DNA of 64,000 bases from assembly GCA_038250865.1 (NCBI GenBank), contig JBBSBW010000008.1, forward strand, positions 6,753 to 70,752, in the 5' to 3' direction. A model generated the notes under the pieces. That model saw only the letters and a list, made by a program, of their open reading frames with translations. It was not told where the DNA came from and ran no database searches. Made by a program: the position numbers and the translations under genes. Of the stretch, positions 1,432 to 59,020 are shown one piece after another (position 1 is the first letter of the stretch; each line of letters begins with the position of its first letter). Source of the DNA: Thermoanaerobaculia bacterium (GTDB taxonomy: Bacteria; Acidobacteriota; Thermoanaerobaculia; Multivoradales; UBA5704).

Positions 1432-1851
1432 ATCGAGGCCGCTATTGTAGCAGCCCTCGCGCCGGGGCTTCGGGTCGGAAGGGAGATTGGCCTGAACCCC
1501 GGCCCAATTCCACCTCACCCTGCACTCCTGCGGGCCTTTCCCTGGGACCGCCGAGCACCAGCTCGGCACTGTCGAGGCGCGGGCCGAAAGCGGTGCGCTT
1601 TAGGGCTGTTCGCGGTTCTGCCACCTCTGCATCCGGTCCCGCGAGGACTGTTAGGCTGGGCAGAAGGGATCGGCCGGAAGAAAAACGCGCGGTTCGACCG
1701 CCGGATACCGACGGGATGGAGGGGATCGCTCCTTCCGGGCTTCCTCACACCGGTCCGCGGATCGAAATGAGCCATAGGACGCACCCGAACACCCGTCCGG
1801 CCTCCGACAGGATTGGTTTCCCGATCCAGAACACCCCTCCGCCGGCGCAGA

Positions 1852-2292
1852 GGAATGTTCCTGAGGTTACACGGAACGTTCCTGGGGTTTCCAGGAATAC
1901 TCCTGAGCGCCAGCGGAATGCTCCTGAGGTTCAGCGGAAAATTCCTGAGGTCAAAAGGAATGCTCCTGAAATTCATCGGAGCATTCCAGACGTTTAGAGG
2001 AAAACTCCTGAGACGCCGCGGAATGCTCCTGTGACCCAGAGGAGTACTCCTGAGTTCAGGAGGAATGCTCCTGGTGTCCAAAGGAGTACTCCTGCCATCT
2101 GAAGGAACATTCCGGGCCTACGAAGGAATGTTCCTGAGGTCCAAAGAAAGATTCCTGAGGTTCCGAGTAAAATTCCTGAAGTACCGGGGAGCATTCCTGA
2201 AGTACCGAGGAGCATTCTTGGCGTTGGGAGAAACATTCCGTTGGTCTGGAGGAGTACTCCTGAGTTTCAGCACAGCACTCCGCGGAGTTGGG
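1852..2292. repeat. Array of 21 contiguous 21-bp tandem repeats, consensus GGAATGCTCCTGAGGTnnnnn, each with a 10-bp palindromic core GGAAnnTTCC
   Basis: Units counted directly at 1852, 1873, 1894 ... 2272 in strict 21-bp phase. Several units are perfect palindromes (GGAACGTTCC). Several overlapping ORFs cover it (plus frame gives RNxPEVx heptads, minus frame LRSIPxx), indicating it is non-coding. Confidence 0.9.
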
Positions 2293-8179: not shown

Positions 8180-8295
8180 GGCGGGCGTCTCCAGAGAATC
8201 TTGCCCTGATCGTATCCCTAGAGCACCGTCCGAGGCGTTTCCTTCCCGAGGCTTGTCCTGGTTGTTTTTGAGCCCCAACGGGGCGGACCATGCCA

Positions 8296-8314
8296 GCCCA
8301 GGGCAACGCCCTGG
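8296..8314 (-). terminator. Possible stem-loop CCCAGGGC-nnn-GCCCTGGG between fah and the amidohydrolase gene
   Basis: 8-bp perfect inverted repeat seen in the sequence. There is no clear U-run, so its function as a terminator or attenuator is uncertain. Confidence 0.2.
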
Positions 8315-8357
8315 GTACGAAGGGTCACATGAAACCACTGAGCCCTGAAGGGGCGAC

Positions 8358-26191: not shown

Positions 26192-26397
26192 CTCGAATTC
26201 TCCTCGCTCTCTTCTATTTCAGTTCTCTGACCGCAGGTTCCGCTCCGGAGCGGCGCACAGCCAAAGTTCTAGCCCAGGCGCCGCCGCCTTCCTGACTTTG
26301 CCGCAGGGGGCTGGAAAGTTTCCGGGTCGACACAGGGCACCGCGGGTGGCAGGCACCGCTGATCTGTCTCGAAGGCGGGAAAAAGATCGAACTTTTT

Positions 26398-26650
26398 CGA
26401 AAAAAGAGTGAACTCGAACGCCTCAAAAGTGAACTCGAACGCCTCAAAAGTGAACTCGAACGCCTCAAAAGTGAACTCGAACGGTTTGCAAGCGAACTTT
26501 TTTGAAAAAAGATCGAACTTGAGCAGCCCGAGAACGTTCTCGAGGAGTTTGGAAGCGAACTTGAGCGCCCAAAAGTGAACTCGAACCGTTTGGAAGCGAA
26601 CTTGAGGCGCTCACGAGCGAACTTCAAGAGCTAAAGAGCGAACTTTTGGG
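26398..26650. repeat. 21-bp tandem repeat array: 3 perfect copies of AGTGAACTCGAACGCCTCAAA followed by about 9 degenerate copies
   Basis: Perfect units at 26398, 26419 and 26440, then degenerate GCGAACTTGAG-containing units to about 26650. In-frame it encodes SELERLK heptads broken by stops and frameshifts. It lies in the 536-bp divergent gap between the DM13 lipoprotein and vapB. Confidence 0.8.
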
Positions 26651-32316: not shown

Positions 32317-35229
32317 ATGCGCAAGCTTTCCCTCTCTCTCGTCGCTGGTCTCTGCGCGGTCTTTCTTTTCGCGTCGGGTCCGGCACATGCCGCGGCTTCC
32401 TGGCCGACTCTCGACCTGCAGTTTACGAACTCGCCGGTACCGATCCAAGCCGGCAGCGCGCTTGCGCGATTGATCCAAGAGAACCAGGACTTCTCGATGC
32501 TCCGCGCTGACGAAGCGAAGGACCTGCGCGGCCTGCCGCCGTGGCTTCGCGTCTGGTGGCGGAAGGAACATCCGGAGGTTGCCTACACGAAGGAAGATCC
32601 GACCGGCGGCTATCCACTGGTGCTGAAGGAAATCTGGGAGTGGATGCTGCATCATCAGGATCTCCTGCCCGGCACGGCCGAGGCGGATCGGGCTCCCGGC
32701 GCATCGGAAGAGGAGCTGGAAAGCGACGCCGCGATGGTGAGCGGCGAGATTCGGACCTCCGGCTCGCAGACCACGCCGCGCAGCGAATCCGACATCCGGG
32801 TCAACTACTTCGATCCGACCAAGATCATCAGCGCCAGCAACAGCATCGTAGGCGGCGGACACCAAGCGGTGTTCTTCTCGACCGACAGCGGTATGACCTG
32901 GGGTCAGACGACGCTGCCGTTCACCGCGACCGACGCCTCGCACTCCGATCCGACCGTCGAGTGGACCTCCGACGGCCGGGCCTGGTCGACCACGCTCGGC
33001 ATCGTCGGCAGCGTGCTCAAATTCCGCACTTACGTCTCGACCGACAACGGCGCCAGTTGGACCTTCGAGGCGACCCCCTCGGCGGCGCAGACCAACGTCG
33101 ACAAGCAGATGGTGTGGGCGGATCACAGCGCGACCTCGCCGTTTAAAGACAACCAGTATGCGATCTGGCACAACGGCACCCCGGCCTTCATGAGCACCCG
33201 GAACGCGGTCACCAACACTTGGGGCGCGCCGATCCAGGTAAGCGGCGCGGAATCGACCGGCACGGCGATCGGCGGCGATGCCAAGACCAACTCGTTCGGT
33301 GACGCGTTTGGCTTCTGGCCGACCACCACGAACGCCCGGGTGTTCGTGGTCAAGTCGACCACCGGCGGGACCTCGTGGGGCACGCCGGTCCAGGTGGCGA
33401 CCACGTTCGACACCTTCGACATCGGCTGCCCGTCGTTCAACAACCGGCGCGCGCTGATCTACATCTCCGGCGGCGCCTATCGGACGGCGACCAAGAACCT
33501 GGTCTACGCCACCTGGAACGACCTGTCGGGTGAAGCCGGCTGCACCGCGCCGGCCAACGAGCCGGGCGCCAACGCCGCTTCGACCTGCAAGATCCGCATC
33601 TGGTTCGCCCGCTCGACCGACGGCGGGGCGACCTGGGAAGCGAAGAAGATGATCAACAACCAGGCGAGCTTGAACGACCAGTTCAACCAATGGCTGGTGG
33701 TCGACGAGACGACCGGCGCGCTCGGCCTGATGTACTACGACACGGTGGGCGACGCCACGCGCAAGAAGGTCGACGTCTGGTACCAGTCGTCGTTCACCGA
33801 TGGCGTTTCTTGGAACCCCGCGGTCAAGGTCACATCGGCGCAGACCGACGAGACGACCGGCGGCCAGGACAGCGGCAACCAGTTCGGCGACTACAACTCC
33901 CTGTCCGGCATCGGCGGCACTTTCTGGCCTTCCTGGACCGATCGCCGCGCGGGAGCCCGCGAGGAAATCTGGACCGCCAAGGTCGCGGACGGCGCCTGCG
34001 CCTTCCCCGGGTCGCCGACCATCGGCACCGCCACCCCGACGGCTCCGAACCAGATCACGGTGACGTTCGGCAACGGCGCTCCGCCCTCCTCGGTGTTCAA
34101 CGTCTACCGCGCGGTCGGCACCTGCGCCTCGCCGGGAACGTTCTCGCGCATCGCCTCCGGCATCGCGGGGAGCCCCTACCTCGACAGCACCGTTTCCGGT
34201 TCCGTCACCTACGCCTACAAAGTGGCGGGAGCGGATGCCACGAACACCTGCGAGTCGGCGCAATCCGGCTGTGTTCAGGCGACCGCGACCGGCGTTTGCA
34301 CCCTGCCGCCGACCTTCGCGGGGGTTGCCTCGGTGACCAATGGCGCCACCTCTCTCTGTTCGATCGGCGTCGCCTGGGCGGCGGCCACCGCGCAATGCGC
34401 GGGTCCGGTCACCTACAACGTCTATCGCTCGACCACACCGGGTTTCGCCCCGATGGTCGCCAACCGGATCGCGGCCGGCGTCTCCGGCACGTCGTTCAAC
34501 GACAACACCCCAGGCATGTTGATGAACGGCACCACCTACTACTACAAGGTGCGGTCGGTCGACGCGGGCAACAGCGCCGAGGACACCAACACGGTGGAGA
34601 AGAGCGCGCAGCCGACCGGCCCGATCGCGGTGGCGAACTTCACCGAGACGTTCGAAGGGGCGGGCGGTTTCGACAACGCGGGTTGGTCGCATGCGGCGCT
34701 TTCCGGAGCGAACGACTGGACCCTGGTCACCTCGCAGAGCCAGACCCCCACCCATTCCTGGAACTCGGTGAGCCAGCCGTCGGTCTCCGACCGCGTGCTG
34801 GTATCGCCGGGCTTCGTCGGCCAGGCGGGAAGTACACTGTCGTTCTTCCACACCTTCGCGTTCGAAAGCGCCACGTCCTGCTTCGACGCCGGCACCCTGG
34901 AGTTTTCGACCGACGGCGGAATGACCTGGACGGTCCTGCCGGATGCGAACTTCACGGCCGGCGGTTTCACCGGCACCGTCTCGGCGAGCTTCTCCAACCC
35001 GATCGGCGGCAAGCGTGCCTGGTGCAACGGCACGATCGGCGCGATGACCCAGGTGACGGCGAACCTCGCTTCGCTCTCCGGCATGAGCTTCAAGCTCCGC
35101 TGGCATGAGGGAGACGATTCGAGCGCGATCGCCACCGGCTGGTTCGTCGACTCGGTCAATCTCAACAACGTCGGCACGGCGAGCGTCTGCGCGATGCCGG
35201 TGTCGCTGACTGGATTTTCGATCGAGTAA
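32317..35229 (+). CDS. Large secreted BNR/Asp-box (sialidase-like) protein with two FN3-like domains and a C-terminal MAM-like domain
   Basis: Signal peptide MRKLSLSLVAGLCAVFLFASGPAHA. BNR repeats FFSTDSGMTWGQ, YVSTDNGASWT, VVKSTTGGTSWGT, FARSTDGGATWEA, SFTDGVSWNP. C-terminal ~394 aa are near-identical to the C-terminus of the next gene. Confidence 0.7.
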   Translation: MRKLSLSLVAGLCAVFLFASGPAHAAASWPTLDLQFTNSPVPIQAGSALARLIQENQDFSMLRADEAKDLRGLPPWLRVWWRKEHPEVAYTKEDPTGGYPLVLKEIWEWMLHHQDLLPGTAEADRAPGASEEELESDAAMVSGEIRTSGSQTTPRSESDIRVNYFDPTKIISASNSIVGGGHQAVFFSTDSGMTWGQTTLPFTATDASHSDPTVEWTSDGRAWSTTLGIVGSVLKFRTYVSTDNGASWTFEATPSAAQTNVDKQMVWADHSATSPFKDNQYAIWHNGTPAFMSTRNAVTNTWGAPIQVSGAESTGTAIGGDAKTNSFGDAFGFWPTTTNARVFVVKSTTGGTSWGTPVQVATTFDTFDIGCPSFNNRRALIYISGGAYRTATKNLVYATWNDLSGEAGCTAPANEPGANAASTCKIRIWFARSTDGGATWEAKKMINNQASLNDQFNQWLVVDETTGALGLMYYDTVGDATRKKVDVWYQSSFTDGVSWNPAVKVTSAQTDETTGGQDSGNQFGDYNSLSGIGGTFWPSWTDRRAGAREEIWTAKVADGACAFPGSPTIGTATPTAPNQITVTFGNGAPPSSVFNVYRAVGTCASPGTFSRIASGIAGSPYLDSTVSGSVTYAYKVAGADATNTCESAQSGCVQATATGVCTLPPTFAGVASVTNGATSLCSIGVAWAAATAQCAGPVTYNVYRSTTPGFAPMVANRIAAGVSGTSFNDNTPGMLMNGTTYYYKVRSVDAGNSAEDTNTVEKSAQPTGPIAVANFTETFEGAGGFDNAGWSHAALSGANDWTLVTSQSQTPTHSWNSVSQPSVSDRVLVSPGFVGQAGSTLSFFHTFAFESATSCFDAGTLEFSTDGGMTWTVLPDANFTAGGFTGTVSASFSNPIGGKRAWCNGTIGAMTQVTANLASLSGMSFKLRWHEGDDSSAIATGWFVDSVNLNNVGTASVCAMPVSLTGFSIE

Positions 35230-35384: not shown

Positions 35385-38300
35385 ATGAACCGAATCACCC
35401 GGTTGTCCGCCGGGCTGGTGGTCTCCGTCGCAGCGTTGCTCGCGACCACCGCCTCAGCCCAGATGATGCAGCGCAATGATCCCGGTCCGCTCGGGCGTCT
35501 CGCGACGCTCAAAGAAGCCTTGAGTCCGCCCGCTTCTACCGCGCTGCTCGATCAGACTTCGGTCGGCCTCGCCGCGAACGTCACCAGCACCTGGGGCAGC
35601 TTCCTGGGTGAGGTCGGCGGTACCTGGGTCGGCTACGTCGACAAACGGAGCGGCTACCTGGAGTTCGCGGAAGGTTCCGGCTGGCCCTGGGTTCCGGGCA
35701 ACGGCAACAACCTCGCCAAGGCGGACATCGCGCAGTACCTGGCCGGTGCCGATCAGGTCGACATCGCAACGCTCGACCGGATCGCGCGCGCCAACCTGCC
35801 AACGGTCGCTCCGCTGCTCGGGGTGGCTGACGCCGACCTGAAGCTTTCCGCCGGCCGGTCGGGACGGATGTCGGACTACCTCTGGTACGTCGATTACGAC
35901 GTCTACCGCGGCGGATGGAAGATCGAAGGCGCCCGAGTGATGTTCCGGATCAACCATGGCAACGTGGTGCAGTTCGGTTCCGAGGGCGTGCCGCCGCCGG
36001 GAATCTCCGCCCCCTTCCCGCGCCTTTCGCGCGAAGAGGCGGTCCAGGCGGTTGCGAGCTACATCGGCGGATTCACCACGAGGGACGGTCTGGTCGATAC
36101 CGGCTCGCTCAAGATGATGACTCGCGCCAAGATCGATTCCACCGCCACGGACCACTTCCGGCTCGGCGATGGCTACGGCCTGCTGCCGGTCTGGGAACTC
36201 TCGTTCCGGCGCAAAGAGGTGGTCGGCACCTGGCGCGCCCGGGTCGATGCGATCACCGGCCAGATCATCGAGTTCGGCGACGTCAACGAGTATGCCCAAG
36301 CCAAGGGCGGCGTCGTGCTCGTCCAGCCTTCTCTCGGCGAGACCAGCAAGCCGGTTCCCTTCACCAACATCTCGACCGGCGGCTTCACCAACTCGGCCGG
36401 CGTCTATACGCCCGCCGGGGCGGCGACCTCGAGCTTGAACGGCCAGTACGTCCGTCCGGTCGACAGCTGCGGCGCGATCTCGCTCGCCGCGGACGGCATG
36501 AACAACTTCGATTTTGGTTCCTCGGCGGCGAGCGACTGCTCGACCCCGGGCTTCGGCGGCGCGGGCAACACCCGTTCGTCGCGCACCCAGTTCTATTGGG
36601 TCAACCGGGTGAAGGAAGTCGGCCGCGGCTGGCTCCCGGCGGTCGCCTGGCTCTCGGCCCAGCTGACCACGAACGTCAACCTGAACCAGACCTGCAACGC
36701 CTACTGGAACGGCTCGACGCTCAACTTCTTCAAGTCGGGCGGCGGTTGCGGCAACACCGGCGAGCTGCCGAGCGTTTCGTTGCATGAATACGGCCACGGC
36801 CTGGACAGCAACGACGGCACGGGCGCCCCGCCGGAGAACGGCAGCGGCGAAACGGTCGGCGACTGGACCGCCTCGCTCGCCACCCACCTCTCCTGCATCG
36901 GCTCGGGCTTCCTGGCTTCCAACTGCGGCGGTTACGGCAACGCCTGCACCTCCTGCACGGGAGTCCGCGACATCGACTGGGCGAAGCACACCGCAAATGT
37001 GGCCTCGACCCCGGCGAACTTCACCCAGACCACCTGCCCGCAGCCCAACGCCAACAACCCGAACTACGTCGGCCCCTGCGGCGCCAACGCGATCGCCAAC
37101 GCCACTCTCACCAAGAAGCGTGAAGGGCACTGCGAGTCGTACATCTCGTCGCAGGCGCTCTGGGACCTCGCGAACCGCGACCTGCCGAGCCCCGGCACCG
37201 GCGGCGCCTGGTCGATCTCCGACCGGCTCTGGTACCTGACCCGGGCGACCACCACCAGCTTCTTTACCTGCAACACGGTGCCCACCACCTGGACCTCCGA
37301 CGGTTGCGCGGCCGGCACCCTGTTCCGCACCTTCCGGGTGGCCGACGACGACGACGGCAACCTGGCGAACGGCACGCCGCACGGCGGCTCGATCTTCGCG
37401 GCGTTCGACCGCCACAACATCGCTTGCGCCTCCGATCCGGGGTCGAACACGACGTTTGCGGCCTGCACGATTCCCACCTCGCCGACGCTTTCGCTCACCC
37501 CGTCGAACAACACGATGCAACTTTCGTGGACCTCGTCGGGCGCCGGGATCGTCTACGACGTCTATAAGAACGAGCTCGACTGCAACGCGGGCTTCATCAA
37601 GATTGCCAACGACGTCGCGACGACCAGCTTCAACGACCCGAACGCCGCGAACTTCTTCAACTACAACTACCAGATCATCGCCCACCCGACCGGCACCGAG
37701 GCCTGCGGCGCGCCGCCGTCCAACTGCGCCACGGCAGCTCCGCTGCCCTGTACCGCTCCCTCCTCGCCGACGGTCGGCACGGAGACCGCTTCGGCGCCCA
37801 ACCAGATCACGGTGACCTGGTCCAACGGTGCGCCGGCTTCGGACTTCTTCAACGTCTACCGGGCGGTCGGCACCTGTGCCTCGCCGGGACCGTTCACCCA
37901 GGTTGCGAACATGTTGGCGGGAAGCCCTTACATCGACAACACCGTTTCGGGTAGCACGACCTACGCATACAAGATCTCAGGAACCGAGACGACGGGCGTT
38001 TGTGAATCGCCCCAGACCACCTGCGTCCAGGCCACCGCTACGGGCGTCTGCACCTTGCCGCCGACGTTCGCGGGCATCGCTTCGGCATCCAACGGTGCCA
38101 CGTCGCTCTGCTCGGTCGGCGTCTCCTGGGCCGCCGGAACCGCGCAGTGCGCGGGACCGGTCAGCTACAACGTCTACCGGTCGACCACCATGGGCTTCAC
38201 CCCGATGGTCGGCAACCGGATCGCCTCAGGCGTCTCCGGCACGTCGTTCAACGACAACACGCCGGGCATGCTCATGAACGGCACCACCTACTACTACAAG

Positions 38301-38993
38301 GTGCGGGCGGTCGATGCAGGCAACAGCTCGGAAGACACCAACACGGTCGAGAAGAGCGCCGTGCCGAGCGGGCCGATCGCTGTGGGCACCTTCACCGAGA
38401 CGTTCGAAGGGCCGATGGGCTTCGACAACGTGGGCTGGACGCACGCTGCTCTGTCCGGCGCCCCGGATTGGACCCTCTCGACCGCGCAGTCCCAGACCCC
38501 GACCCACTCGTGGAACTCGACCAGCATCGCCACGGTCTCGGATCGCGTTTTGGTCTCGCCGGCATTCATCGCCGCAGCCACCACGACGCTGTCGTTCTGG
38601 CACACATTCGCTCTGGAGCAGAGCGCCACGCCGACCACCTGTTTCGACGGCGGCACGCTCGAAACCTCGGTCGACGGCGGGATGACCTGGGTCGTCATTC
38701 CAGATGCGGCGATCACTGCCGGTCCGTTCATCGGCACGGTCTCCGCCTCGTTCGGTAGCCCGATCGCCGGCAAGAAGGCCTGGTGCGGCAACACGACGAT
38801 CGGTCCCTTCAGCCAGGTGACGGTCAACCTCGCCGCGTTCGCGGGCCAGACGATGAAGCTGCGTTGGCGCGAAGGGGATGACAGCAGCGTTGCCCGGATC
38901 GGCTGGTTCGTTGACTCTGTGGTTCTGACCAACGCCGGAACGGCGAGTGTCTGCGCCATGCCGGTCGCGTTGACCGGGTTCTCGGTCGAGTAG
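35385..38993 (+). CDS. Large secreted zinc metalloprotease (HEYGH motif, M36/fungalysin-like or M4-like) with two FN3-like domains and a C-terminal MAM-like domain
   Basis: Signal peptide MNRITRLSAGLVVSVAALLATTASAQ. Propeptide-like N-terminal region. Zinc site SVSLHEYGHGLDSNDG. C-terminal ~398 aa are paralogous to the C-terminus of the preceding gene. Confidence 0.75.
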   Translation: MNRITRLSAGLVVSVAALLATTASAQMMQRNDPGPLGRLATLKEALSPPASTALLDQTSVGLAANVTSTWGSFLGEVGGTWVGYVDKRSGYLEFAEGSGWPWVPGNGNNLAKADIAQYLAGADQVDIATLDRIARANLPTVAPLLGVADADLKLSAGRSGRMSDYLWYVDYDVYRGGWKIEGARVMFRINHGNVVQFGSEGVPPPGISAPFPRLSREEAVQAVASYIGGFTTRDGLVDTGSLKMMTRAKIDSTATDHFRLGDGYGLLPVWELSFRRKEVVGTWRARVDAITGQIIEFGDVNEYAQAKGGVVLVQPSLGETSKPVPFTNISTGGFTNSAGVYTPAGAATSSLNGQYVRPVDSCGAISLAADGMNNFDFGSSAASDCSTPGFGGAGNTRSSRTQFYWVNRVKEVGRGWLPAVAWLSAQLTTNVNLNQTCNAYWNGSTLNFFKSGGGCGNTGELPSVSLHEYGHGLDSNDGTGAPPENGSGETVGDWTASLATHLSCIGSGFLASNCGGYGNACTSCTGVRDIDWAKHTANVASTPANFTQTTCPQPNANNPNYVGPCGANAIANATLTKKREGHCESYISSQALWDLANRDLPSPGTGGAWSISDRLWYLTRATTTSFFTCNTVPTTWTSDGCAAGTLFRTFRVADDDDGNLANGTPHGGSIFAAFDRHNIACASDPGSNTTFAACTIPTSPTLSLTPSNNTMQLSWTSSGAGIVYDVYKNELDCNAGFIKIANDVATTSFNDPNAANFFNYNYQIIAHPTGTEACGAPPSNCATAAPLPCTAPSSPTVGTETASAPNQITVTWSNGAPASDFFNVYRAVGTCASPGPFTQVANMLAGSPYIDNTVSGSTTYAYKISGTETTGVCESPQTTCVQATATGVCTLPPTFAGIASASNGATSLCSVGVSWAAGTAQCAGPVSYNVYRSTTMGFTPMVGNRIASGVSGTSFNDNTPGMLMNGTTYYYKVRAVDAGNSSEDTNTVEKSAVPSGPIAVGTFTETFEGPMGFDNVGWTHAALSGAPDWTLSTAQSQTPTHSWNSTSIATVSDRVLVSPAFIAAATTTLSFWHTFALEQSATPTTCFDGGTLETSVDGGMTWVVIPDAAITAGPFIGTVSASFGSPIAGKKAWCGNTTIGPFSQVTVNLAAFAGQTMKLRWREGDDSSVARIGWFVDSVVLTNAGTASVCAMPVALTGFSVE

Positions 38994-54038: not shown

Positions 54039-55355
54039 ATGAAGGTTGGTCGGAACGATCCCTGCCCCTGCGGCAGCGGCAAGAAGCACAAGAACTGTTG
54101 TCTCGCGCGCGCCCGTTCGGTGCCAAAGGGAGACGAGCCCCTTGACCCCCTCGCTTGGCTCCAACAGCAGAATCCGAAAAGTTTCGACCGAGCGGTCGCC
54201 GAGTTTTACGATGGCGCGGGTCTCGACGAGGAACAGAGCGACCGGTTTTTGCAGCTGCCCGAGGAGCTGCAGGACATGGCTTCCGCCAATGCAGCCGAGT
54301 GGTGCCTCGCCGAGAGCGAGATAGAGATCCGCGGCGAGCGCCGCCGGATTGCCGATTTGGTTCTCGGGCCGGGAGGGCCTCCTCTCGCGGTGGAAGTTCG
54401 ACAGTGGATCCAAGGCCTGGCCGACCACCCCATGAGGGTTTACGAGATCCAGGAGGCGGTGCCGGGCGAGGGCCTGTGGGTCAAGGACGTCGCCACCTCC
54501 AAGGCGCGGCGCCTGTGGGTCTCCGAACGCTCGGGGTCGAAGAGCCTGAATCGGTGGGACATCTTGGGCGCGCGGCTCGTCCTCGTGGGGGAGGAGTGGC
54601 AGATCAGTGGGGCCGTCTATCCCTTCCCCCGCAACGAGCTGCCGGGCCTCAAGGCCGCCCTGCGCGCTACGAAGCGCGACGGCGGCCGACCGAGCGCGCC
54701 GATCATCGCCTGTTGGCTCCGGCATATCACCGCGCCACCTCCCCCACTGCCGCAGTTGGTCGACGCCGGCTCTGGCGAGCCGCTCCTGCTGGTCACCGAT
54801 CATTACGACGTCACCGACTGGAAGGCGCTAATCGCTGCGCTCGCCCGGCAACCGGACGTCGATGGCGACCGAAAAAACGGATGGGGCTGGCTCGAAGAGG
54901 TCGAGGGCCAGTCGTTTGAGCGCTCGAAGCTCGCCCTTAACCCCGGCAAAGGGAATCGCCTGGAGGTTTTCGCTCGCACCCTGCGCCGGGCCGAGGAGGG
55001 CGCGGTTTGGCTGCGGCAGGTCGCCGGCACCGCGCTCACCTACCGTACGCGCGAGATCGTCGACCCTATCGCCTCGATGCGGCAGCGACCTTCCGGCGAA
55101 GCGAAGCCTGCGTCGATGCCGGTTCCGCCGGAGCTTCACCGAGAGCTCTACCGGAACTGGCCGGATCAGCCCATCCCGGCCCTCGGCGATTTTACGCCGC
55201 GCGAGGCCCTTAGCACTCACTCCGGCCGCCAGCAAGTGGTCGATCTGCTCAAGGAGTATGAGCAGCAAGAAGAAAGCAGCGCCCGCCGCCAAGGCCACGA
55301 ACCGGCCAGCTTTCGCTTCCTTTGGGACGAGCTGGGGATAACTCCTCCGGAGTAA
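54039..55355 (+). CDS. SEC-C-motif domain protein (438 aa), function unknown
   Basis: ATG at 54039 with AGGGAG Shine-Dalgarno sequence 10 nt upstream. N-terminal MKVGRNDPCPCGSGKKHKNCC is a canonical SEC-C metal-binding motif. The upstream part of the ORF-track entry is rejected. Confidence 0.6.
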   Translation: MKVGRNDPCPCGSGKKHKNCCLARARSVPKGDEPLDPLAWLQQQNPKSFDRAVAEFYDGAGLDEEQSDRFLQLPEELQDMASANAAEWCLAESEIEIRGERRRIADLVLGPGGPPLAVEVRQWIQGLADHPMRVYEIQEAVPGEGLWVKDVATSKARRLWVSERSGSKSLNRWDILGARLVLVGEEWQISGAVYPFPRNELPGLKAALRATKRDGGRPSAPIIACWLRHITAPPPPLPQLVDAGSGEPLLLVTDHYDVTDWKALIAALARQPDVDGDRKNGWGWLEEVEGQSFERSKLALNPGKGNRLEVFARTLRRAEEGAVWLRQVAGTALTYRTREIVDPIASMRQRPSGEAKPASMPVPPELHRELYRNWPDQPIPALGDFTPREALSTHSGRQQVVDLLKEYEQQEESSARRQGHEPASFRFLWDELGITPPE

Positions 55356-55388
55356 CCGTCGGTACGCAGGCATCTTCGCGCGACTCGC

Positions 55389-55457
55389 CGGATGCACCCG
55401 GTTCTTCTGACCCTCCATGAGGTGCTGGCCCTGCACGCGGACCCGATCAACCGCTAG
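55389..55457 (+). pseudogene. Possible Doc/Fic-family toxin N-terminal fragment (22 codons)
   Basis: MHPVLLTLHEVLALHADPINR* resembles the Doc N-terminus (LTLEEVLxIHxxLI). Continuation-like GVRMGEDRGAEQARTMTRP in another frame downstream of the palindromic element (about 55880-55940). Weak. Confidence 0.25.
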
Positions 55458-55530
55458 AAAAAACTCGCGAATCGCCATCTTGTGTAGGGGCGGCGCGCTG
55501 TCGCCTCAGGGCCTCGTCAAAGTCGGAAGC

Positions 55531-55830
55531 GGGTCCGGCCCAACGGGCCGGGAGAACCTAGCCCAGGGCTGAGGCCGAAGGCCGATGCCCTGGGATGAAA
55601 GACCCCACAGAAAGGCGGCCTGAAAGGCCGCGAGAACTCTCAGGCCCACGCGTAGCGCTCGTCAAATTCGCTTTTCTAGGCCTCCAGGAACGCACGGAGT
55701 CTGCGGATCTGTCGAGCCTTAAGTTCTCGCGGCCTTTCAGGCCGCCAGGAGGTGGTGATCCTTCCCCCAGGGCATCGGCCTTCGGCCTCAGCCCTGGGCT
55801 GGGTTCTCCCGGCCCGTTGGGCCGGATTTT
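55531..55830. repeat. ~300-bp nested near-perfect palindrome (MITE-like or cruciform element): outer 62-bp arms with 1 mismatch, inner 24-bp arms
   Basis: Left arm 55531-55594 GGGTCCGGCCCAACGGGCCGGGAGAACCTAGCCCAGGGCTGAGGCCGAAGGCCGATGCCCTGGG equals the reverse complement of 55767-55830 with 1 mismatch. Inner GGCGGCCTGAAAGGCCGCGAGAAC (about 55615) pairs with GTTCTCGCGGCCTTTCAGGCCGCC (about 55722). The ORFs across it are artefacts. Confidence 0.85.
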
Positions 55831-56014
55831 TTGATTGCCGGTGCCGTCTCCTCGCGGTCGATATCGGCGCGCACCTCGGGCGGGAGTGCGGATGGGAGAG
55901 GACCGAGGGGCTGAGCAGGCGCGGACTATGACGAGACCTTGACGAAAGACGTAAGCGGCCTCCTTGCCGTAGCATCGCCGTGCTACTCTGTTTCAGATTC
56001 TCGAAGGAGGCCAG

Positions 56015-56239
56015 ATGACACGAGAGATCACGCTCCGGCAGGTTGGCGGCTCCATCGGAGCGACGATTCCGAAGGACATGGCCGACCGGCTGAATCTGGA
56101 AGTCGGAGATCGCCTCTTCGCGGTCGAGGTGGACGCCGGGATCTTGCTGACCCCCTATGACCCGACGGTCGCGGACGGGCTGGAGCACGCCGCACGAGCA
56201 GCCCGGAAGTATGGCAGAGCGCTCCAAGACCTCGCGTAG
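56015..56239 (+). CDS. AbrB/MazE/SpoVT-family antitoxin-like protein (orphan; no toxin gene follows)
   Basis: MTREITLRQVGGSIGATIPKDMADRLNLEVGDRLFAVEVDAGILLTPYDP is a swapped-hairpin AbrB/MazE fold signature. The downstream gene is convergent, so this is not an operon partner. Confidence 0.65.
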   Translation: MTREITLRQVGGSIGATIPKDMADRLNLEVGDRLFAVEVDAGILLTPYDPTVADGLEHAARAARKYGRALQDLA

Positions 56240-56341
56240 TGTCCAGTGTGCGAATCTCGATAGGACCGGCCTATACAGCATCAGTCGTCTCAAACTCTGC
56301 AATCAGAGGGCCGGATCCGTTATTGCACTCGTCGAAAATCT

Positions 56342-56917
56342 TCAACCTGTGTAGCCTTCGGTCTTGGGATCAATCGCCGTCCCTAGTTCAGTCGCAATCT
56401 CCTCTGAAGCTTTTCGCGTGTCCGGATGCCGGCACATCCCCAAGATGCTCTCCATCTCTGTCAGCCAATTGGAAATGTCTGCTTCGAAACCAAAAACCCA
56501 CGAACTGGTAACAGAGTTATACAACTCTAGGTCGACACCCGGATTCCCATGGGCGATATTTTTTCGCATCACCCTTGCGCTGGAGATGTCCATCTTACAC
56601 TTCGGCTGCCTTGAGCCCTTCTTCTTCAATTCCCCTATCTTGCTGGCGAGAACCAGCCTAGAAACAGCTTCCCAAGATGGTTCATCCAACAATGCCTTCA
56701 GCCAGCTATTAACGACTCCTTCAAGATAGGCATTCAGCAATAATACCGCGATTCTAAGATACCGCTTCGCCAGCAAGCGGTCCGTTCGAGTCGTCAAACC
56801 TTCATGAGTCAAGGCTATTTCCCTGACCGCTAAGTAGTCGTGCCACAGATCTTCAAGAAGAGAAATTGATTCTACAAGGATAGAACCGTCTGGTGAGAAC
56901 GTAAAGCTCATCTGCAT
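56342..56917 (-). CDS. Hypothetical protein (191 aa) in a markedly lower-GC segment
   Basis: ORF MQMSFTFSPDGSILVESISLLEDLWHDYLAVREIALTHEG... AT-rich codon usage compared with neighbours. No recognisable motif. Confidence 0.4.
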   Translation of the reverse strand: MQMSFTFSPDGSILVESISLLEDLWHDYLAVREIALTHEGLTTRTDRLLAKRYLRIAVLLLNAYLEGVVNSWLKALLDEPSWEAVSRLVLASKIGELKKKGSRQPKCKMDISSARVMRKNIAHGNPGVDLELYNSVTSSWVFGFEADISNWLTEMESILGMCRHPDTRKASEEIATELGTAIDPKTEGYTG

Positions 56918-57037
56918 TCAGTTCTCCTATCAAGAATTCTCCGACAGACCAGGAGTCTACGCCCAACGGCCACTCGGCTCGGGGAGTGGCTCGCAGGCAG
57001 CCATTGTGGTATTTTAAGTCAACATGGAGGCGTCCCT

Positions 57038-57304
57038 GTGCCCTTCGACACGATCCTGTGGGACTTGGACGACGATCCGGACGGCAACGTCCAACACTGC
57101 GCCGACCATGGGGTCTCGAAAGGCGAGGTCAAAGAAGCGTTGACGAATGCGATGGGCGCCGACATCAGCCGATCCTCTGGACGGCCGGTGATTTTTGGAT
57201 ACACCCTTCGCGGCCGGCATCTAATAGTGGTCTATGACGAAGTGGACTCCCATACAGTGTACCCGGTGACGGCTTACGAGGTTCGCAGGAGGCATCGACG
57301 ATGA
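57038..57304 (+). CDS. brnT: BrnT-like toxin (DUF497, RelE/ParE superfamily ribonuclease)
   Basis: GTG start: MPFDTILWDLDDDPDGNVQHCADHGVSKGEVKEALTN...GRHLIVVYDEVDSHTVYPVTAYEV follows the BrnT pattern (F.WD...N..KHG.S..E). It overlaps the downstream antitoxin by 4 nt. Confidence 0.65.
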   Translation: MPFDTILWDLDDDPDGNVQHCADHGVSKGEVKEALTNAMGADISRSSGRPVIFGYTLRGRHLIVVYDEVDSHTVYPVTAYEVRRRHRR

Positions 57305-57648
57305 GCTTGCACGAAATCACACGAGATCGACGCCTGTCGCCCGAAGAGGCCGCGAAGTATCGCGAGATCCGGGCGCAGATCGCCGAGGAACTACCGGAAT
57401 TGATCGCCCGGCACCACGAACGGATGGCGGCCAACGACCAGATGGCCGATCTCGTCAAACAGTTGAAGGCGGCGCGCGAGGCGCAGGGCCTCAGTCTCGC
57501 CGACCTGACCCGGTTGACCGGGATGGATCGATCCGCCCTCTCAAAGCTCGAAACCGGACAACGGCTCAATCCCACGTTTGAGACTCTCGTGCGCTATGCG
57601 GAGGCTGTGGGTCAGCGCCTGGTTTTTTCGCTGGCGAAAGCCTCCTAA
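57301..57648 (+). CDS. brnA: BrnA-like antitoxin (XRE-type HTH at C-terminus)
   Basis: LSPEEAAKYREIRAQIAEEL...GLSLADLTRLTGMDRSALSKLETGQRLNPTFETLVRYAEAVGQRL is an HTH_XRE. Toxin-first order as in BrnTA. Confidence 0.65.
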   Translation: MSLHEITRDRRLSPEEAAKYREIRAQIAEELPELIARHHERMAANDQMADLVKQLKAAREAQGLSLADLTRLTGMDRSALSKLETGQRLNPTFETLVRYAEAVGQRLVFSLAKAS

Positions 57649-57845
57649 GCGGTCCGTCGGCGCGGAAGTACGGCGGTCACCGTCGCGGTTCAGATTATGC
57701 GGCTTCTTCCCCCCTCGCTCCTGACCTGCTCTGAACCCTCGGCGCGGTCCAACGATGGACGAGTAATTGCCGACCGGAATTCAAGGCCGCCCGCCCCCCA
57801 GATCCCTCGCTCTCGCTCGGGATGACGAGAGGCGGGAGCAGTTTC

Positions 57846-58445
57846 CTACCCCAGCCGCCGCTCCACCTTTCCCCAGAACGCTTCGAGGTCGAGCGAGATC
57901 TCAGGTCGCACGGCGGAGCGATAGGCGGACCCGGTGGGGAGCGCTACGACGAAGCGACTGTTCTCGTTGACCAGAAACTCGATCTGTCGTTCGGCGGGAT
58001 CGACGATCCAGTATTCGCCGACGCCGGAACGGGCGTAGAGGTCGAGTTTGAAAATGCGGTCTCGGCGGGCTGTGCCCGGCGATAGGATCTCGACCAGAAG
58101 ATCCGGAGCGCCCTGGATCCATCCCTTTTTGTCACCGAGAATCGATAGCCGGTCGGCAGAGACATAGATCACGTCCGGCTGCACGATGGAGTGTGCCGCG
58201 AGGTGGACGTCGAGGGGAGCCAGGAGCGCGTAACCGCCGTTCGTCTCGGCGATCCCTTCCAGGTGTTGCCAGATCTTAGTGGCCACGAATTGGTGAGGGA
58301 TCAGCGGGCTGGGCGTCACGTAGAAGTCTCCGAAAATCAGCTCACACCGGGGCTCGTCGGGAAGGTTCGCGTAATCCGCGACCCGGTAAGGACCTGGGTC
58401 CTCGGGGAGGGTCAGCGGCGGGGCATCGAAGAGGGCGACGGACAT
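57846..58445 (-). CDS. Uma2-family (DUF820) restriction-endonuclease-like protein
   Basis: ATG at 58443-58445: MSVALFDAPPLTLPEDPGPYRVADYANLPDEPRCELIFGDFYVTPSP...PDVIYVSADRL...APDLLVEILSPGT...YARSGVGEYWIVDP is a canonical Uma2 (PD-(D/E)xK-like) motif. The in-frame upstream extension runs into repeat DNA and is rejected. Confidence 0.75.
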   Translation of the reverse strand: MSVALFDAPPLTLPEDPGPYRVADYANLPDEPRCELIFGDFYVTPSPLIPHQFVATKIWQHLEGIAETNGGYALLAPLDVHLAAHSIVQPDVIYVSADRLSILGDKKGWIQGAPDLLVEILSPGTARRDRIFKLDLYARSGVGEYWIVDPAERQIEFLVNENSRFVVALPTGSAYRSAVRPEISLDLEAFWGKVERRLG

Positions 58446-58459
58446 GGAATCTGAATTAT

Positions 58460-58960
58460 ACGCCTGCAATCTCGCGCGCGAGCCCCGCTTGCTGGGTGCG
58501 CAGCACCGCTTCCTCGATGCACCGTGGTGCTGGACAGAGTCCCCAAAGTGGTGGGCCGAGTCCGAACACCGCTTCGCAGGTTCCCAGAAGCGGTGGGTGA
58601 AAACCCGAGACCGCTTCACGGCTGCCCGAAAGCGGCGGATGGGAAGCGGATACCAGTGGATCGCGTCAGCGCACCGGTGGCCCGGTCCCGAGAAGCGCTT
58701 CGCGGCGGGCGCAAACCGGTGCTCGGCGCCCATCCGCCGCTTCCGGCACCTTGCGTAGCGGTGCTCGGGCCCGATCCGGTGGGTTCGGGTTGCCGCTCAG
58801 CACTCTCCGCTTCCTGCCCGGCGGGTTCCGGCGCCTGCCCGGCGGGTTCCGGCACCTGCCCGGCGGATTCCGGCACCTGCCCGGCGGGTTTCGGCACCTG
58901 CCCGGCGGATTTCGGCGCCTGCCCGGCGGTTTCCGGCGCCTGCCCGGCGGGTTTGCGAAG
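58460..58960. repeat. 21-bp tandem repeat array: 7 well-conserved units CTGCCCGGCGGGTTCCGGCRC (58814-58960) continuing as degenerate ~21-bp periodic, hairpin-rich sequence back to about 58460
   Basis: Units counted at 58814, 58835, 58856, 58877, 58898, 58919 and 58940. Upstream translation shows a 7-aa periodicity of HRF/KRF/RRF and many short inverted repeats (CACCGCTTC...GAAGCGGTG). It lies between Uma2 and recX. Confidence 0.8.
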
Positions 58961-59020
58961 CGGGGAGGCGCTTGCGGGAAGCCGCGAAGTGCGTCTCGGC
59001 TGCTGCGAAGCGGTCCCCGG

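What the first reader, a model, noticed from the sequence alone, without database searches (positions are those of the whole stretch)
55389..56000. 300-bp nested palindromic (MITE-like) element adjacent to a Doc-toxin gene fragment
55531-55830 forms an almost perfect hairpin: 62-bp outer arms with 1 mismatch, an inner 24-bp inverted repeat and a ~90-bp centre. It is non-coding and lies right after a 22-codon ORF that looks like a Doc/Fic N-terminus. A Doc-like continuation (GVRMGEDRGAEQA ~ GxRDEGxLESA) appears in another frame on the far side, consistent with insertion of a mobile palindromic element into, or decay of, a doc gene. Alternatively it is a recombination or structured-RNA site.
Basis: seen in the sequence. 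Interest (0 to 1): 0.6.

Follow-up and report, generated by a model that had tools for sequence, protein, structure and literature searches.

The report
Gutted tyrosine-transposase element, not Doc
The 300-bp nested palindrome is the shell of a small mobile element that has lost almost all of its IS200-like tyrosine-transposase gene. It belongs to a very widespread, poorly described repeat family and has nothing to do with a Doc toxin gene.

Summary
The nested inverted repeat is real: 61-nt arms with 1 mismatch, 25-nt inner arms that match perfectly, and an RNA-fold z-score of -18.9. Each arm is a three-hairpin module of about 105 nt.

That module (core CCCAACGGG-N12-AGCCCAGGGC) recurs in Planctomycetota, Verrucomicrobiota, Acidobacteriota, KSB1, Thiodictyon and other groups.

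In 13 of 119 fetched genome loci a 150-aa Y1/HUH transposase gene lies nearby (PF01797, E=3e-26). In at least six of them it sits exactly between two inverted modules.

Read on the minus strand, the window element is collinear with full-length relatives (L151, L223) except for one deletion of about 415 bp. What remains is the 5' repeat and leader, the last 19 codons of the transposase gene (LRAFLEA*KSEFDERYAWA*, 55640-55699) and the 3' repeat.

Soil metagenomes hold a graded series, from intact elements (arm spacing 610-631 bp) down to abundant doublets (138-165 bp) that are copied as whole units.

The Doc reading is not supported. There are no profile, PDB or motif matches. The small ORF stops 76 bp before the element. 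Removing the element in silico restores no gene.

The closest known kinds are REPIN/RAYT and TIRtron systems. The transposase is class-1.2-like, a group previously reported to lack such repeats.

The parts
55523..55533 (-). Probable outer tip of the element's 3' end (gene orientation is the minus strand), lying outside the inverted repeat
   Evidence: Window TCGGAAGCGGG|TCCGG matches CGGGCAGCAAG|TCCGG in the non-syntenic copies L022 and L223. Similarity stops further out. Inferred from only three copies.
55534..55638 (-). Left arm, which is the 3' terminal inverted repeat. It has three hairpins: H1' 55535-55551 (CCGGCCC-AAC-GGGCCGG), H2' 55562-55594 (CCCAGGGC...GCCCTGGG, with a nested GGCCGAAGGCC hairpin at 55573-55583) and H3' 55615-55631 (GCGGCC-TGAAA-GGCCGC)
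   Evidence: nhmmer with the family profile gives E=1.2e-10. It aligns to the 3' repeat of the full-length L151 and L223 elements at 81-88% identity.
55640..55699 (-). Pseudogene remnant: the last 19 codons plus stop of a Y1/HUH (IS200-like) transposase gene, LRAFLEA*KSEFDERYAWA*, with one internal stop
   Evidence: tblastn of the intact L223 Y1 protein against the whole window gives one significant hit: aa 132-150 to 55699-55643(-), 74% identity, E=1.5e-4. hmmsearch matches profile positions 132-149. The DNA is collinear with L151 positions 586-645 and with L223.
55700..55721 (-). Remnant of the 5' leader that lies between hairpin 3 and the transposase start codon in intact elements. The deletion junction is at 55699/55700
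   Evidence: Alignments to seven or more full-length relatives all break at window 55699/55700.
55722..55826 (-). Right arm, which is the 5' terminal inverted repeat: H3 55729-55745, H2 55766-55798, H1 55809-55825. On the + strand, H1 followed by ATTTTTTGAT is terminator-like
   Evidence: nhmmer E=4.2e-10. 87% identity to the L151 5' repeat plus leader. Terminator-like site reported. The short-read contig L001 breaks inside this arm at 55797.
55827..55843 (-). Probable outer tip of the element's 5' end (TTTTTTGATTGCCGGTG on the + strand), outside the inverted repeat
   Evidence: The same 17-18 nt (CACCGGCAATC[A/C]AAAAA|TCCGG) flanks the 5' repeat of the non-syntenic copy L022. Seen in two copies only, so a preferred target site cannot be excluded.
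8269..8357 (+). Solo three-hairpin unit of the same family but a different sub-family (GCCCC-AAC-GGGGC; CCCAGGGC-AAC-GCCCTGGG; GCCC-TGAAG-GGGC). It lies between convergent ORFs
   Evidence: nhmmer E=1.1e-16. It matches the family pattern, aligns in register with 37 units from other phyla, and its ORF context is shown.

Best explanation
The palindrome is a non-autonomous, internally deleted copy of a small transposable element. In the intact form, a 150-aa single-domain Y1/HUH tyrosine transposase gene (IS200-like, with the motifs of 'subclass 1.2') is bracketed by two inverted three-hairpin modules of about 105-125 nt.

In this copy one deletion of about 415 bp removed the start codon and roughly the first 130 codons. 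What is left, read on the minus strand, is the 5' repeat, 22 nt of leader, the last 19 codons of the gene, and the 3' repeat. The two repeats now lie 83 bp apart and fold into one long hairpin.

Shown here:
- The anatomy of the element.
- Its collinearity with intact relatives.
- The gene-to-repeat association.
- The graded deletion series.
- The copying of short doublets as whole units into unrelated flanks.

Inferred from the established biochemistry of IS608/ISDra2 TnpA and E. coli RAYT:
- The hairpins are recognised as single-stranded DNA by the Y1 enzyme.
- That enzyme would cut and rejoin single strands without making a target-site duplication.
- This copy could therefore move only if an intact enzyme of the same sub-family is supplied in trans. 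None is encoded in the 64-kb window.

A likely side-effect, also inferred: the GC hairpin plus T-run at the right end can act as a terminator after the upstream SEC-C gene.
For: (1) Nested inverted repeat and extreme fold stability.

(2) The arm module recurs widely. The sub-family arm gave at least 120 metagenome stretches.

(3) Thirteen of 119 loci carry a Y1 gene: PF01797 E=3e-26, NCBIfam IS200 69 bits against a cut-off of 55. In L109, L065, L091, L106, L061 and L085, and partly L084, the gene lies between inverted units. Hairpin 3 sits 10-25 nt from the ATG, and the mirrored hairpin 3 follows just after the stop.

(4) Window element against full-length L151: 127 nt at 87% (5' repeat plus leader) and 166 nt at 81% (last 60 bp of the ORF plus 3' repeat), with a single gap of about 415 bp. 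All full-length relatives break at 55699/55700. L223 has an intact gene ending ...EFDERYVWA*, the same WA* ending as the remnant.

(5) tblastn gives one significant hit in the whole window, exactly there (E=1.5e-4).

(6) Arm spacing forms a series: 138-165 (21 copies), 206 (window), 208-591, and 610-631 (5 full length). L144, L128 and L238 are independent deletions that keep other parts of the gene.

(7) Short doublets share centres but not flanks.

(8) Hairpins H1 and H3 show compensatory changes. The 3' half of H2 is invariant although it was not part of the search pattern.

(9) No target-site duplication, as expected for HUH/Y1 elements.
Against: - No second copy with this exact deletion junction was found among about 240 fetched loci. 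So it is not shown that this particular derivative ever moved after the deletion; it may simply have decayed where it landed.
- No empty site could be found. Relatives diverge completely downstream of the SEC-C gene.
- The source genome outside the window could not be scanned, so it is unknown whether an intact partner transposase exists.
- Long symmetric inverted ends are not how canonical IS200/IS605 elements are built. The strand and cleavage sites used by this enzyme are therefore unknown, and the mechanism is argued by analogy.
- The outer tips (55523-55533, 55827-55843) rest on two or three copies.
Confidence: 0.88

Rival explanations
1. One reading: a mobile palindrome inserted into, and so split, a doc (Fic/Doc toxin) gene. 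Its N-terminus would be the 21-codon ORF and its continuation would lie on the far side.
For: The ORF and the peptide strings exist. A MazE/AbrB-type antitoxin gene lies 190 bp downstream (PF04014, E=3e-10), and the region is rich in toxin-antitoxin genes.
Against: No Pfam hit in any frame at E<=10, with or without the element removed. No PDB hit at E<=10 for either peptide. No Fic/Doc motif. The ORF ends 76 bp before the element, and excision restores no frame. From general knowledge, the antitoxin gene normally precedes doc, so a doc remnant would be expected downstream of mazE rather than upstream. Relatives have no doc gene at this position.
Confidence: 0.03
2. The element is primarily a structured RNA (an sRNA or cis-regulatory element such as Acido-Lenti-1), not a DNA-level mobile element.
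For: Very stable fold. Hairpin covariation cannot by itself tell RNA from single-stranded DNA. Weak Acido-Lenti-1 matches occur on both arms (17.7 and 16.0 bits). There is a terminator-like end.
Against: Nothing in the window reaches any Rfam gathering score. The Acido-Lenti-1 matches are less than half the threshold of 37 bits, with E of 0.09-1.8 even in a 361-nt search. The modules bracket transposase genes in inverted orientation and come as a deletion series. That is a property of transposon ends, not of an RNA gene.
Confidence: 0.05
3. The family is a domesticated, vertically inherited REPIN-RAYT-type symbiosis, with one transposase per genome kept by the host, rather than an ordinary selfish insertion sequence with MITE-like offspring. 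The window copy would then be a member of a long-lived REPIN-like population.
For: The architecture is REPtron-like: the gene sits between inverted hairpin repeats, doublets are far more numerous than genes, and doublets are copied as units. Quentin et al. 2018 (PMC6006769) report low genomic copy number and no IS properties for subclass 1.2.
Against: The protein scores as IS200 and fails the curated RAYT model (26.6 bits against a cut-off of 80). The same repeat core is conserved across phyla, unlike lineage-specific REPs. The L223 enzyme is 69% identical to one in a Verrucomicrobiota MAG but only 52% identical to one in a Thermoanaerobaculia MAG, which hints at horizontal transfer. Damaged and intact gene copies lie within 1 kb of each other on one contig, L202. 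Copy number per genome could not be measured.
Confidence: 0.25
4. A chance or locally generated palindrome, for example a replication-slippage product or a recombination or cruciform site, with no relation to mobile DNA.
For: It occurs once as a doublet in the 64-kb window.
Against: Homologous modules occur in hundreds of unrelated loci. The two arms have different, lineage-conserved H2-H3 spacers. A transposase gene remnant lies in the centre.
Confidence: 0.01

Closest known systems
REPIN / RAYT systems (REPtrons; Nunvar 2010; Bertels & Rainey 2011, PMC3116915 and PMC3337134; Ton-Hoang 2012)
   Same: A small Y1/HUH transposase gene is flanked by hairpin-forming repeats in inverted orientation. 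Dispersed doublets of two inverted repeats fold into one long hairpin, are non-autonomous and are copied as units. There is no target-site duplication.
   Different: The enzyme is class-1 (IS200-like) by motifs and by NCBIfam, and it fails the curated RAYT model. The repeat unit is a compound module of three hairpins, about 100 nt, rather than a single 20-40-nt REP. The tetranucleotide before H2 is NNAG, and GTAG in only 7 of 124 cases. The repeat core is conserved across phyla. Single-copy status is untested.
TIRtrons / TIRYT (Di Nocera et al. 2013, PMC3733652)
   Same: A tyrosine-transposase gene is bracketed by long terminal inverted repeats, some of them self-complementary. These also occur as moderately abundant dimers or clusters.
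   Different: TIRYT proteins are longer (subclass 2.1, about 238 aa, with a C-terminal HTH) and their repeats share GGGGWSAS. Here the protein is 150 aa with no extra domain, and the motif is absent.
TnpA-Y1 subclass 1.2 of Quentin et al. 2018 (PMC6006769)
   Same: About 148-150 aa, with HuH DH[IVL]H, a WQ motif, and the Y motif YIxNQxEHH (Y---Q--HH). There is a conserved C-terminal tail (...FDERYVWD).
   Different: That paper lists the subclass as lacking REPs and IS-type ends and as mostly cyanobacterial and Bacteroidetes. Here members in Planctomycetota, Verrucomicrobiota, Acidobacteriota and others are bracketed by conserved three-hairpin repeats that have many gene-less derivatives. Assignment to the subclass is by motif match only; no joint phylogeny was made.
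IS200/IS605 insertion sequences (IS608, ISDra2) and their miniature derivatives
   Same: Pfam Y1_Tnp and NCBIfam IS200 membership of the enzyme. There is distant similarity to the solved Deinococcus protein 2FYX (E=6e-4). Ends are hairpin-rich, there is no target duplication, and non-autonomous copies arise by internal deletion.
   Different: Canonical members have short, dissimilar left and right ends with the hairpins on one strand. Here the ends are long, near-perfect inverted repeats. No tnpB gene accompanies the Y1 gene in the loci examined.
Phd/Doc toxin-antitoxin modules
   Same: Only the neighbourhood: a MazE/AbrB antitoxin gene lies downstream, and other toxin-antitoxin genes are nearby.
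   Different: No sequence, motif or profile similarity to Doc/Fic anywhere in 55300-56100.

Membership tests
Y1/HUH (IS200/IS605-family) transposable element | Encodes a single-domain Y1 transposase with HuH and catalytic Tyr motifs (Pfam PF01797) | tested here: met
   Met for intact relatives: PF01797 E=3e-26, NCBIfam transpos_IS200 69.4 bits against a cut-off of 55. The window copy keeps only the last 19 codons, so it is a non-autonomous derivative.
Y1/HUH (IS200/IS605-family) transposable element | Dissimilar left and right ends with subterminal hairpins on the same strand, and no terminal inverted repeats | tested here: not met
   The ends are inverted repeats of about 105 nt (61/25-nt blocks at 98-100% identity in the window; the same holds around intact genes). 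Only the H2-H3 spacers and the outermost 11-18 nt differ between the ends.
Y1/HUH (IS200/IS605-family) transposable element | No target-site duplication on insertion | tested here: met
   Only 4-nt chance matches were found over about 700 boundary combinations.
Y1/HUH (IS200/IS605-family) transposable element | Insertion next to a specific tetra- or pentanucleotide target | tested here: inconclusive
   Flanks beyond the conserved outer tips show no obvious shared motif. Too few copies have securely defined tips.
REPIN-RAYT system | Doublet of two inverted hairpin repeats that folds into one hairpin and is dispersed in many copies | tested here: met
   Window doublet. 36 doublets in fetched loci, 21 of them short. 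Sub-families have the same centre in different flanks.
REPIN-RAYT system | Transposase gene flanked by the same repeats in inverted orientation | tested here: met
   L109, L065, L091, L106, L061, L085, L151, L202.
REPIN-RAYT system | Transposase carries the RAYT (class 2) signature and passes the curated REP_Tyr_transpos model | tested here: not met
   26.6 and 22.1 bits against a cut-off of 80. The Y motif YIxNQxEHH is class 1.2, not Y..NP.
REPIN-RAYT system | REP is a single 20-40-nt palindrome with a GTAG-type foot | tested here: not met
   The unit is about 90-105 nt with three hairpins. The foot before H2 is ATAG 31, CCAG 20, ACAG 15 ... GTAG 7, out of 124.
REPIN-RAYT system | Transposase is single-copy per genome and vertically inherited | not testable with these tools
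   Whole genomes could not be scanned. Hints of horizontal transfer: 69% identity across phyla against 52% within the class.
MITE (generic) | Short, gene-less, with terminal inverted repeats, and derived from an autonomous element by internal deletion | tested here: met
   About 320 bp, collinear with L151 and L223 apart from one gap of about 415 bp.
MITE (generic) | Flanked by a target-site duplication | tested here: not met
   None found. This is expected for HUH chemistry.
TIRtron / TIRYT | TIRs carrying GGGGWSAS, and a longer transposase with a C-terminal HTH domain | tested here: not met
   The motif is absent on both strands. The protein is 150 aa with only PF01797.
Doc/Fic toxin gene (fragment) | Match to the Fic/DOC profile, or the catalytic motif HxFx(D/N)(A/G)N(G/K)R | tested here: not met
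   No Pfam family at E<=10 in six frames. No PDB match at E<=10. No motif.
Rfam Acido-Lenti-1 RNA (RF01687) | Score at or above the gathering threshold (37 bits) | tested here: not met
   17.7 and 16.0 bits. Nothing in the window reaches a gathering score.

The most novel reading that the evidence does not exclude
The three-hairpin module and its 150-aa class-1.2 Y1 enzyme may form a previously undescribed, cross-phylum REPtron-like system. It would be an IS200-like (not RAYT-type) transposase that has spawned large populations of REPIN-like doublets in Planctomycetota, Verrucomicrobiota, Acidobacteriota and other phyla. All intermediates are preserved, from the intact element through partly deleted copies such as the one in this window to the minimal doublet. 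That would give direct fossil evidence on a question Bertels & Rainey left open: whether REPIN-type doublets arise from the ends of IS200-like elements. It would also overturn the statement that subclass 1.2 has no associated repeats.
Probability: 0.45. Interest if true: 0.6.

Novelty: new variant of a known kind. Interest (0 to 1): 0.42.

Why it matters
For this window, it replaces a speculative "disrupted toxin gene" with a concrete annotation: a dead, non-autonomous Y1 element in a variable, toxin-antitoxin-rich intergenic region, possibly acting as a terminator.

More broadly, the family behind it is very common in soil and freshwater Planctomycetota, Verrucomicrobiota and Acidobacteriota. 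It breaks short-read assemblies: contig L001 ends inside the arm, and many hits lie at contig ends. Its modules translate without stops, so they can be miscalled as parts of spurious ORFs.

The family links an IS200-like enzyme, reported as lacking repeats, to REPIN-like doublets through a visible deletion series. That makes the proposed origin of REPINs from IS200-like ends testable with sequence data and a simple biochemical assay.

Tried and rejected
- **Rfam.** Only sub-threshold hits (anti-hemB 19.2/49.5, Acido-Lenti-1 17.7/37), rejected as chance.
- **Doc.** Six-frame Pfam scan, in-silico excision at three boundary choices, PDB phmmer of both peptides and a catalytic-motif regex were all negative.
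- **Second transposase remnant in the left flank.** The 13-mer CTCGTCAAAGTCG at 55513-55525 resembles CTCGTCAAATTCG in the centre. Local alignment does not extend, and 28 of 1000 shuffles score as well, so I treat it as chance.
- **L022 as the orthologous locus.** Its flank looks similar but it is not syntenic; an M14-type peptidase gene lies next to it.
- **L144 as a second copy of the same deletion derivative.** It is an independent deletion that keeps the middle of the gene.
- **Empty-site search through SEC-C orthologues.** P0002, P0003 and P0006 lose similarity to the window at the stop codon. P0001, the window's own protein, was not on record for contig retrieval.
- **Arm homogenisation.** Arms within an element are no more alike than arms between elements (0.84 vs 0.82).
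- **Phage or plasmid vehicles.** Only 2 viral contigs and 2 distant plasmid hits.
- **Literature search for the repeat sequence.** Nothing in the text or supplements of Di Nocera 2013, nor library-wide. Figures are not searchable, so prior description cannot be excluded.
- **TIRYT membership.** Rejected on motif and protein length.
Full report
**1. The observation**

The nested inverted repeat is present as described. The outer arms are 55534-55594 and 55766-55826 (61 nt, one mismatch). The inner arms are 55614-55638 and 55722-55746 (25 nt, perfect), with 83 nt between them. It is the longest inverted repeat in the 64-kb window. As a single strand the region folds at -249.6 kcal/mol, against -140.4 +/- 5.8 for shuffles (z = -18.9).

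Each arm is itself three hairpins:
- H1: CCGGCCC-AAC-GGGCCGG.
- H2: CCCAGGGC...GCCCTGGG, with a small extra hairpin in its loop.
- H3: GCGGCC-TGAAA-GGCCGC.

The 21-codon ORF at 55392-55457 exists. Its supposed Doc likeness is dealt with in section 5.

**2. The arm is a member of a very large repeat family**

A diverged single copy of the same three-hairpin unit lies at 8269-8357. The two window versions share the core CCCAACGGG-N12-AGCCCAGGGC.

- The hits come from Planctomycetota (including the isolates Singulisphaera GP187 and Botrimarina Pla108), Verrucomicrobiota, Acidobacteriota/Thermoanaerobaculia, Lentisphaerota, KSB1, Sumerlaeota, Chlamydiota, Myxococcota and Thiodictyon.
- Many hits lie at contig ends. 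The one short-read contig identical to the window (L001) starts inside the right arm. This is the usual behaviour of repeats in assemblies.
- Several loci carry +/- pairs 130-320 bp apart, the same convergent doublet as in the window.
- A profile of 79 units finds exactly three units in the window: the solo copy and the two arms.

Across units the consensus structure is three hairpins.
- The two variable pairs of H1 are paired in 97% of 126 distinct contexts, above every one of 1000 shuffles, with C-G/G-C and G-C/A-T exchanges.
- RNAalifold finds compensatory changes in H1 and H3.
- The 3' half of H2 is invariant although it was not part of the search pattern.

No Rfam family reaches its threshold anywhere in the window. 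The Acido-Lenti-1 and anti-hemB matches are far below their gathering scores.

**3. The units are the terminal inverted repeats of a tyrosine-transposase element**

In 13 of the 119 genome loci an ORF of about 150 aa lies next to the units. It begins MPQSL..VHL.FSTK.R and ends ...FDERYVWD. It is a Y1/HUH transposase:
- Pfam PF01797, E = 3e-26.
- NCBIfam IS200/IS605 transposase, 69 bits against a cut-off of 55.
- The curated REP-associated (RAYT) model scores only 26.6 bits against a cut-off of 80.
- The nearest solved structure is a Deinococcus IS200-family protein (2FYX, E = 6e-4).

In L109, L065, L091, L106, L061 and L085, and partly in L084, the gene sits exactly between two inverted units. 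Hairpin 3 lies 10-25 nt before the ATG, and the mirrored hairpin 3 follows a few bases after the stop.

The protein family is large: 2320 clusters at E <= 1e-10. NCBI names it 'IS200/IS605 family transposase'. JGI uses the generic COG name 'RayT'.

**4. What the window copy is**

Among 36 doublets the distance between the two H2 hairpins forms a series: 138-165 bp (21 copies), 206 bp (the window), then 208, 226, 244, 290, 310, 372, 438, 567 and 591 bp, and 610-631 bp (5 copies).

- The longest carry intact 150-aa genes (L151, L202). L223 has an intact gene followed by the same 3' end as the window.
- Intermediates keep different pieces of the gene. L238 keeps the C-terminal half. L128 keeps an N-terminal piece plus the end. 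L144 keeps a middle piece.

Read on the minus strand, the window element aligns to L151 in two blocks. The first is 127 nt at 87% (5' repeat plus the start of the leader). The second is 166 nt at 81% (last 60 bp of the ORF plus the 3' repeat). A single gap of about 415 bp in the window separates them. Every full-length relative breaks at the same point, window 55699/55700.

The retained coding piece, 55640-55699(-), translates to LRAFLEA*KSEFDERYAWA*. L223 has LRAFLKAYEIEFDERYVWA*. tblastn of ten intact enzymes against the whole window gives this as the only significant hit (74% identity over 19 aa, E = 1.5e-4). An HMM of the family places it at profile positions 132-149 of 150. No intact Y1 gene is present in the 64 kb.

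The two arms differ in their H2-H3 spacers (left GACCCCACA, right CACCACCTCCTGG). The same left/right distinction is found in L022, L223 and the L151 group. So the whole bracketed structure, with its polarity, is the inherited unit.

Comparison with L022 and L223 suggests the element extends 11 nt beyond the left arm and 17-18 nt beyond the right arm, giving about 55523-55843. In another sub-group both tips carry a further conserved TTAGAGCGCCTAACAAAA. There is no target-site duplication.

**5. The Doc idea**

- Six-frame translations of 55356-56014, with the element present or removed at three boundary choices, hit no Pfam family at E <= 10.
- Neither the ORF peptide nor the 'continuation' peptide matches any PDB chain at E <= 10.
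- No frame contains a Fic/Doc catalytic motif.
- The ORF stops 76 bp before the element, so the element cannot be what truncated it. Excision joins no frames.

The upstream gene is a SEC-C-motif protein and the downstream gene is a MazE/AbrB antitoxin. Further downstream lie a weak BrnT-like ORF, an HTH antitoxin and an Uma2 nuclease gene, partly in a low-GC stretch.

Orthologous loci share the ADH, MscL, iron-permease and SEC-C genes. They lose all similarity to the window at the SEC-C stop codon, and each carries something different afterwards: an MFS transporter, a kinase, or another gene. The element therefore sits at the edge of a variable island. No empty site and no doc gene could be found.

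**6. How it most likely works**

Shown:
- The anatomy.
- The gene-to-repeat association.
- The deletion series.
- Short doublets with identical centres sitting in unrelated flanks, for example L147/L178/L232/L184/L201 and L094/L141/L154. Doublets are therefore copied as whole units.

Inferred from the established mechanism of IS608/ISDra2 TnpA and E. coli RAYT (my knowledge of those systems; summarised in PMC6006769):
- The Y1 enzyme recognises the hairpins in single-stranded DNA.
- It cleaves near the tips through its tyrosine and rejoins the strands, without duplicating the target.

A copy that has lost the gene can move only with enzyme supplied in trans. Whether this particular derivative ever moved after its deletion is unknown, because no second copy with its junction was found.

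On the + strand the right-hand H1 hairpin followed by ATTTTTTGAT matches an intrinsic-terminator pattern just after the SEC-C gene. That is a plausible side-effect, but it is untested.

**7. Comparison with what is known**

The architecture matches REPtrons (a RAYT gene plus inverted REPs, with REPIN doublets; PMC3116915, PMC3337134). It also matches the 'TIRtrons' of Di Nocera et al. (PMC3733652). Membership fails on defining features:
- The enzyme is not a class-2 RAYT.
- The repeat is a three-hairpin module of about 100 nt without a GTAG foot.
- The TIRYT motif GGGGWSAS and the C-terminal HTH are absent.
- Canonical IS200/IS605 membership is met for the enzyme but not for the ends, which are long inverted repeats.

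The enzyme's length and motifs (DH[VIL]H, WQ, YIxNQxEHH) fit subclass 1.2 of Quentin et al. 2018. That paper describes the subclass as low-copy, lacking IS-type ends and REPs, and mostly cyanobacterial and Bacteroidetes. The association seen here is therefore apparently not in that literature.

Text searches for the repeat sequence found nothing. Figures and subscription journals could not be searched.

The L223-type enzyme is closer to one in a Verrucomicrobiota MAG (69%) than to another in a Thermoanaerobaculia MAG (52%). Together with the cross-phylum conservation of the repeat core, this hints at horizontal spread. MAG binning errors are a caveat. Viral and plasmid carriers are rare.

**8. 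Verdict**

The palindrome is real. It is explained with high confidence as an internally deleted, non-autonomous Y1-transposase element. The Doc interpretation is rejected.

As an object it is ordinary: a dead mobile element in an intergenic spacer. The family it belongs to is abundant and conserved across phyla. It appears to be an undescribed variant of the REPtron/TIRtron theme, with a preserved series of intermediates. This gives the finding moderate interest.

The source organism is probably a Thermoanaerobaculia (Acidobacteriota) bacterium. That is inferred from the naming of the nearest homologues and from the distribution of the arm sub-family; it was not directly established.

Noticed in passing
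window 8269-8357 (+): Solo three-hairpin unit of the same repeat family but of the 'PVC-type' sub-family (H2 loop AAC, H3 GCCC-TGAAG-GGGC). It lies between convergent ORFs. The genome therefore hosts at least two sub-families.
   Followed up: partly
window 55356-58750: A variable island begins exactly at the SEC-C stop codon. It holds an apparently orphan MazE/AbrB antitoxin gene (56015-56239), a 191-aa ORF with no family on the minus strand (56342-56917), a weak BrnT/DUF4258-like ORF (57038-57304) overlapping an HTH_3 antitoxin gene (57301-57648), and an Uma2 nuclease gene (57846-58733, minus strand). GC falls to 0.50-0.54 at 56400-57200, against 0.64-0.71 around it. Relatives have unrelated genes here.
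   Followed up: partly
window 58776-58985: Tandem array of about 9 copies of a 21-nt unit (CCTGCCCGGCGGGTTCCGGCG-like), which would encode a heptad repeat if translated. It lies next to the Uma2 gene.
   Followed up: no
window 1830-2249 and 26382-26645: Two further arrays of 21-nt tandem repeats: about 20 copies at 1830-2249, and about 12 AT-richer copies (AAAAGTGAACTCGAACGCCTC-like) at 26382-26645.
   Followed up: no
window 33995-35228 vs 37747-38992: Two blocks of about 1.2 kb, 71-76% identical and 3.75 kb apart. They are probably tandem paralogous genes.
   Followed up: no
L202 6013-7413; also L105, L079, L109: Elements cluster. L202 has an intact element and a partly deleted one within 1 kb, plus further arms upstream. 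L105 has four same-orientation units in 4 kb. L079 has two doublets in 700 bp. These are REPtron-like clusters.
   Followed up: partly
loci L143, L156, L191, L214, L224-L226, L229, L236 and others: In one sub-group both element tips carry an extra conserved outer motif, T(T/A)AGAGCGCCTAACAAAA, which is itself a mini-palindrome (TTAG...CTAA). At the 5' end it is followed by an extra CCGGTTG. This may mark the true cleavage-proximal ends.
   Followed up: partly
unit alignments: H1 plus its 3' tail (GCCCCAACGGGGC-GAGATA) resembles H3 plus its tail (GCCCTGAAAGGGC-GGGATA). In some sub-families H3 is literally a second GCCCCAACGGGGC. The module therefore looks like two direct copies of one hairpin flanking H2.
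   Followed up: no
L248 7909-8093 and L247 874-904 (IMG/VR contigs): These are the only two viral-collection contigs carrying the family pattern. One has a complete convergent doublet.
   Followed up: no
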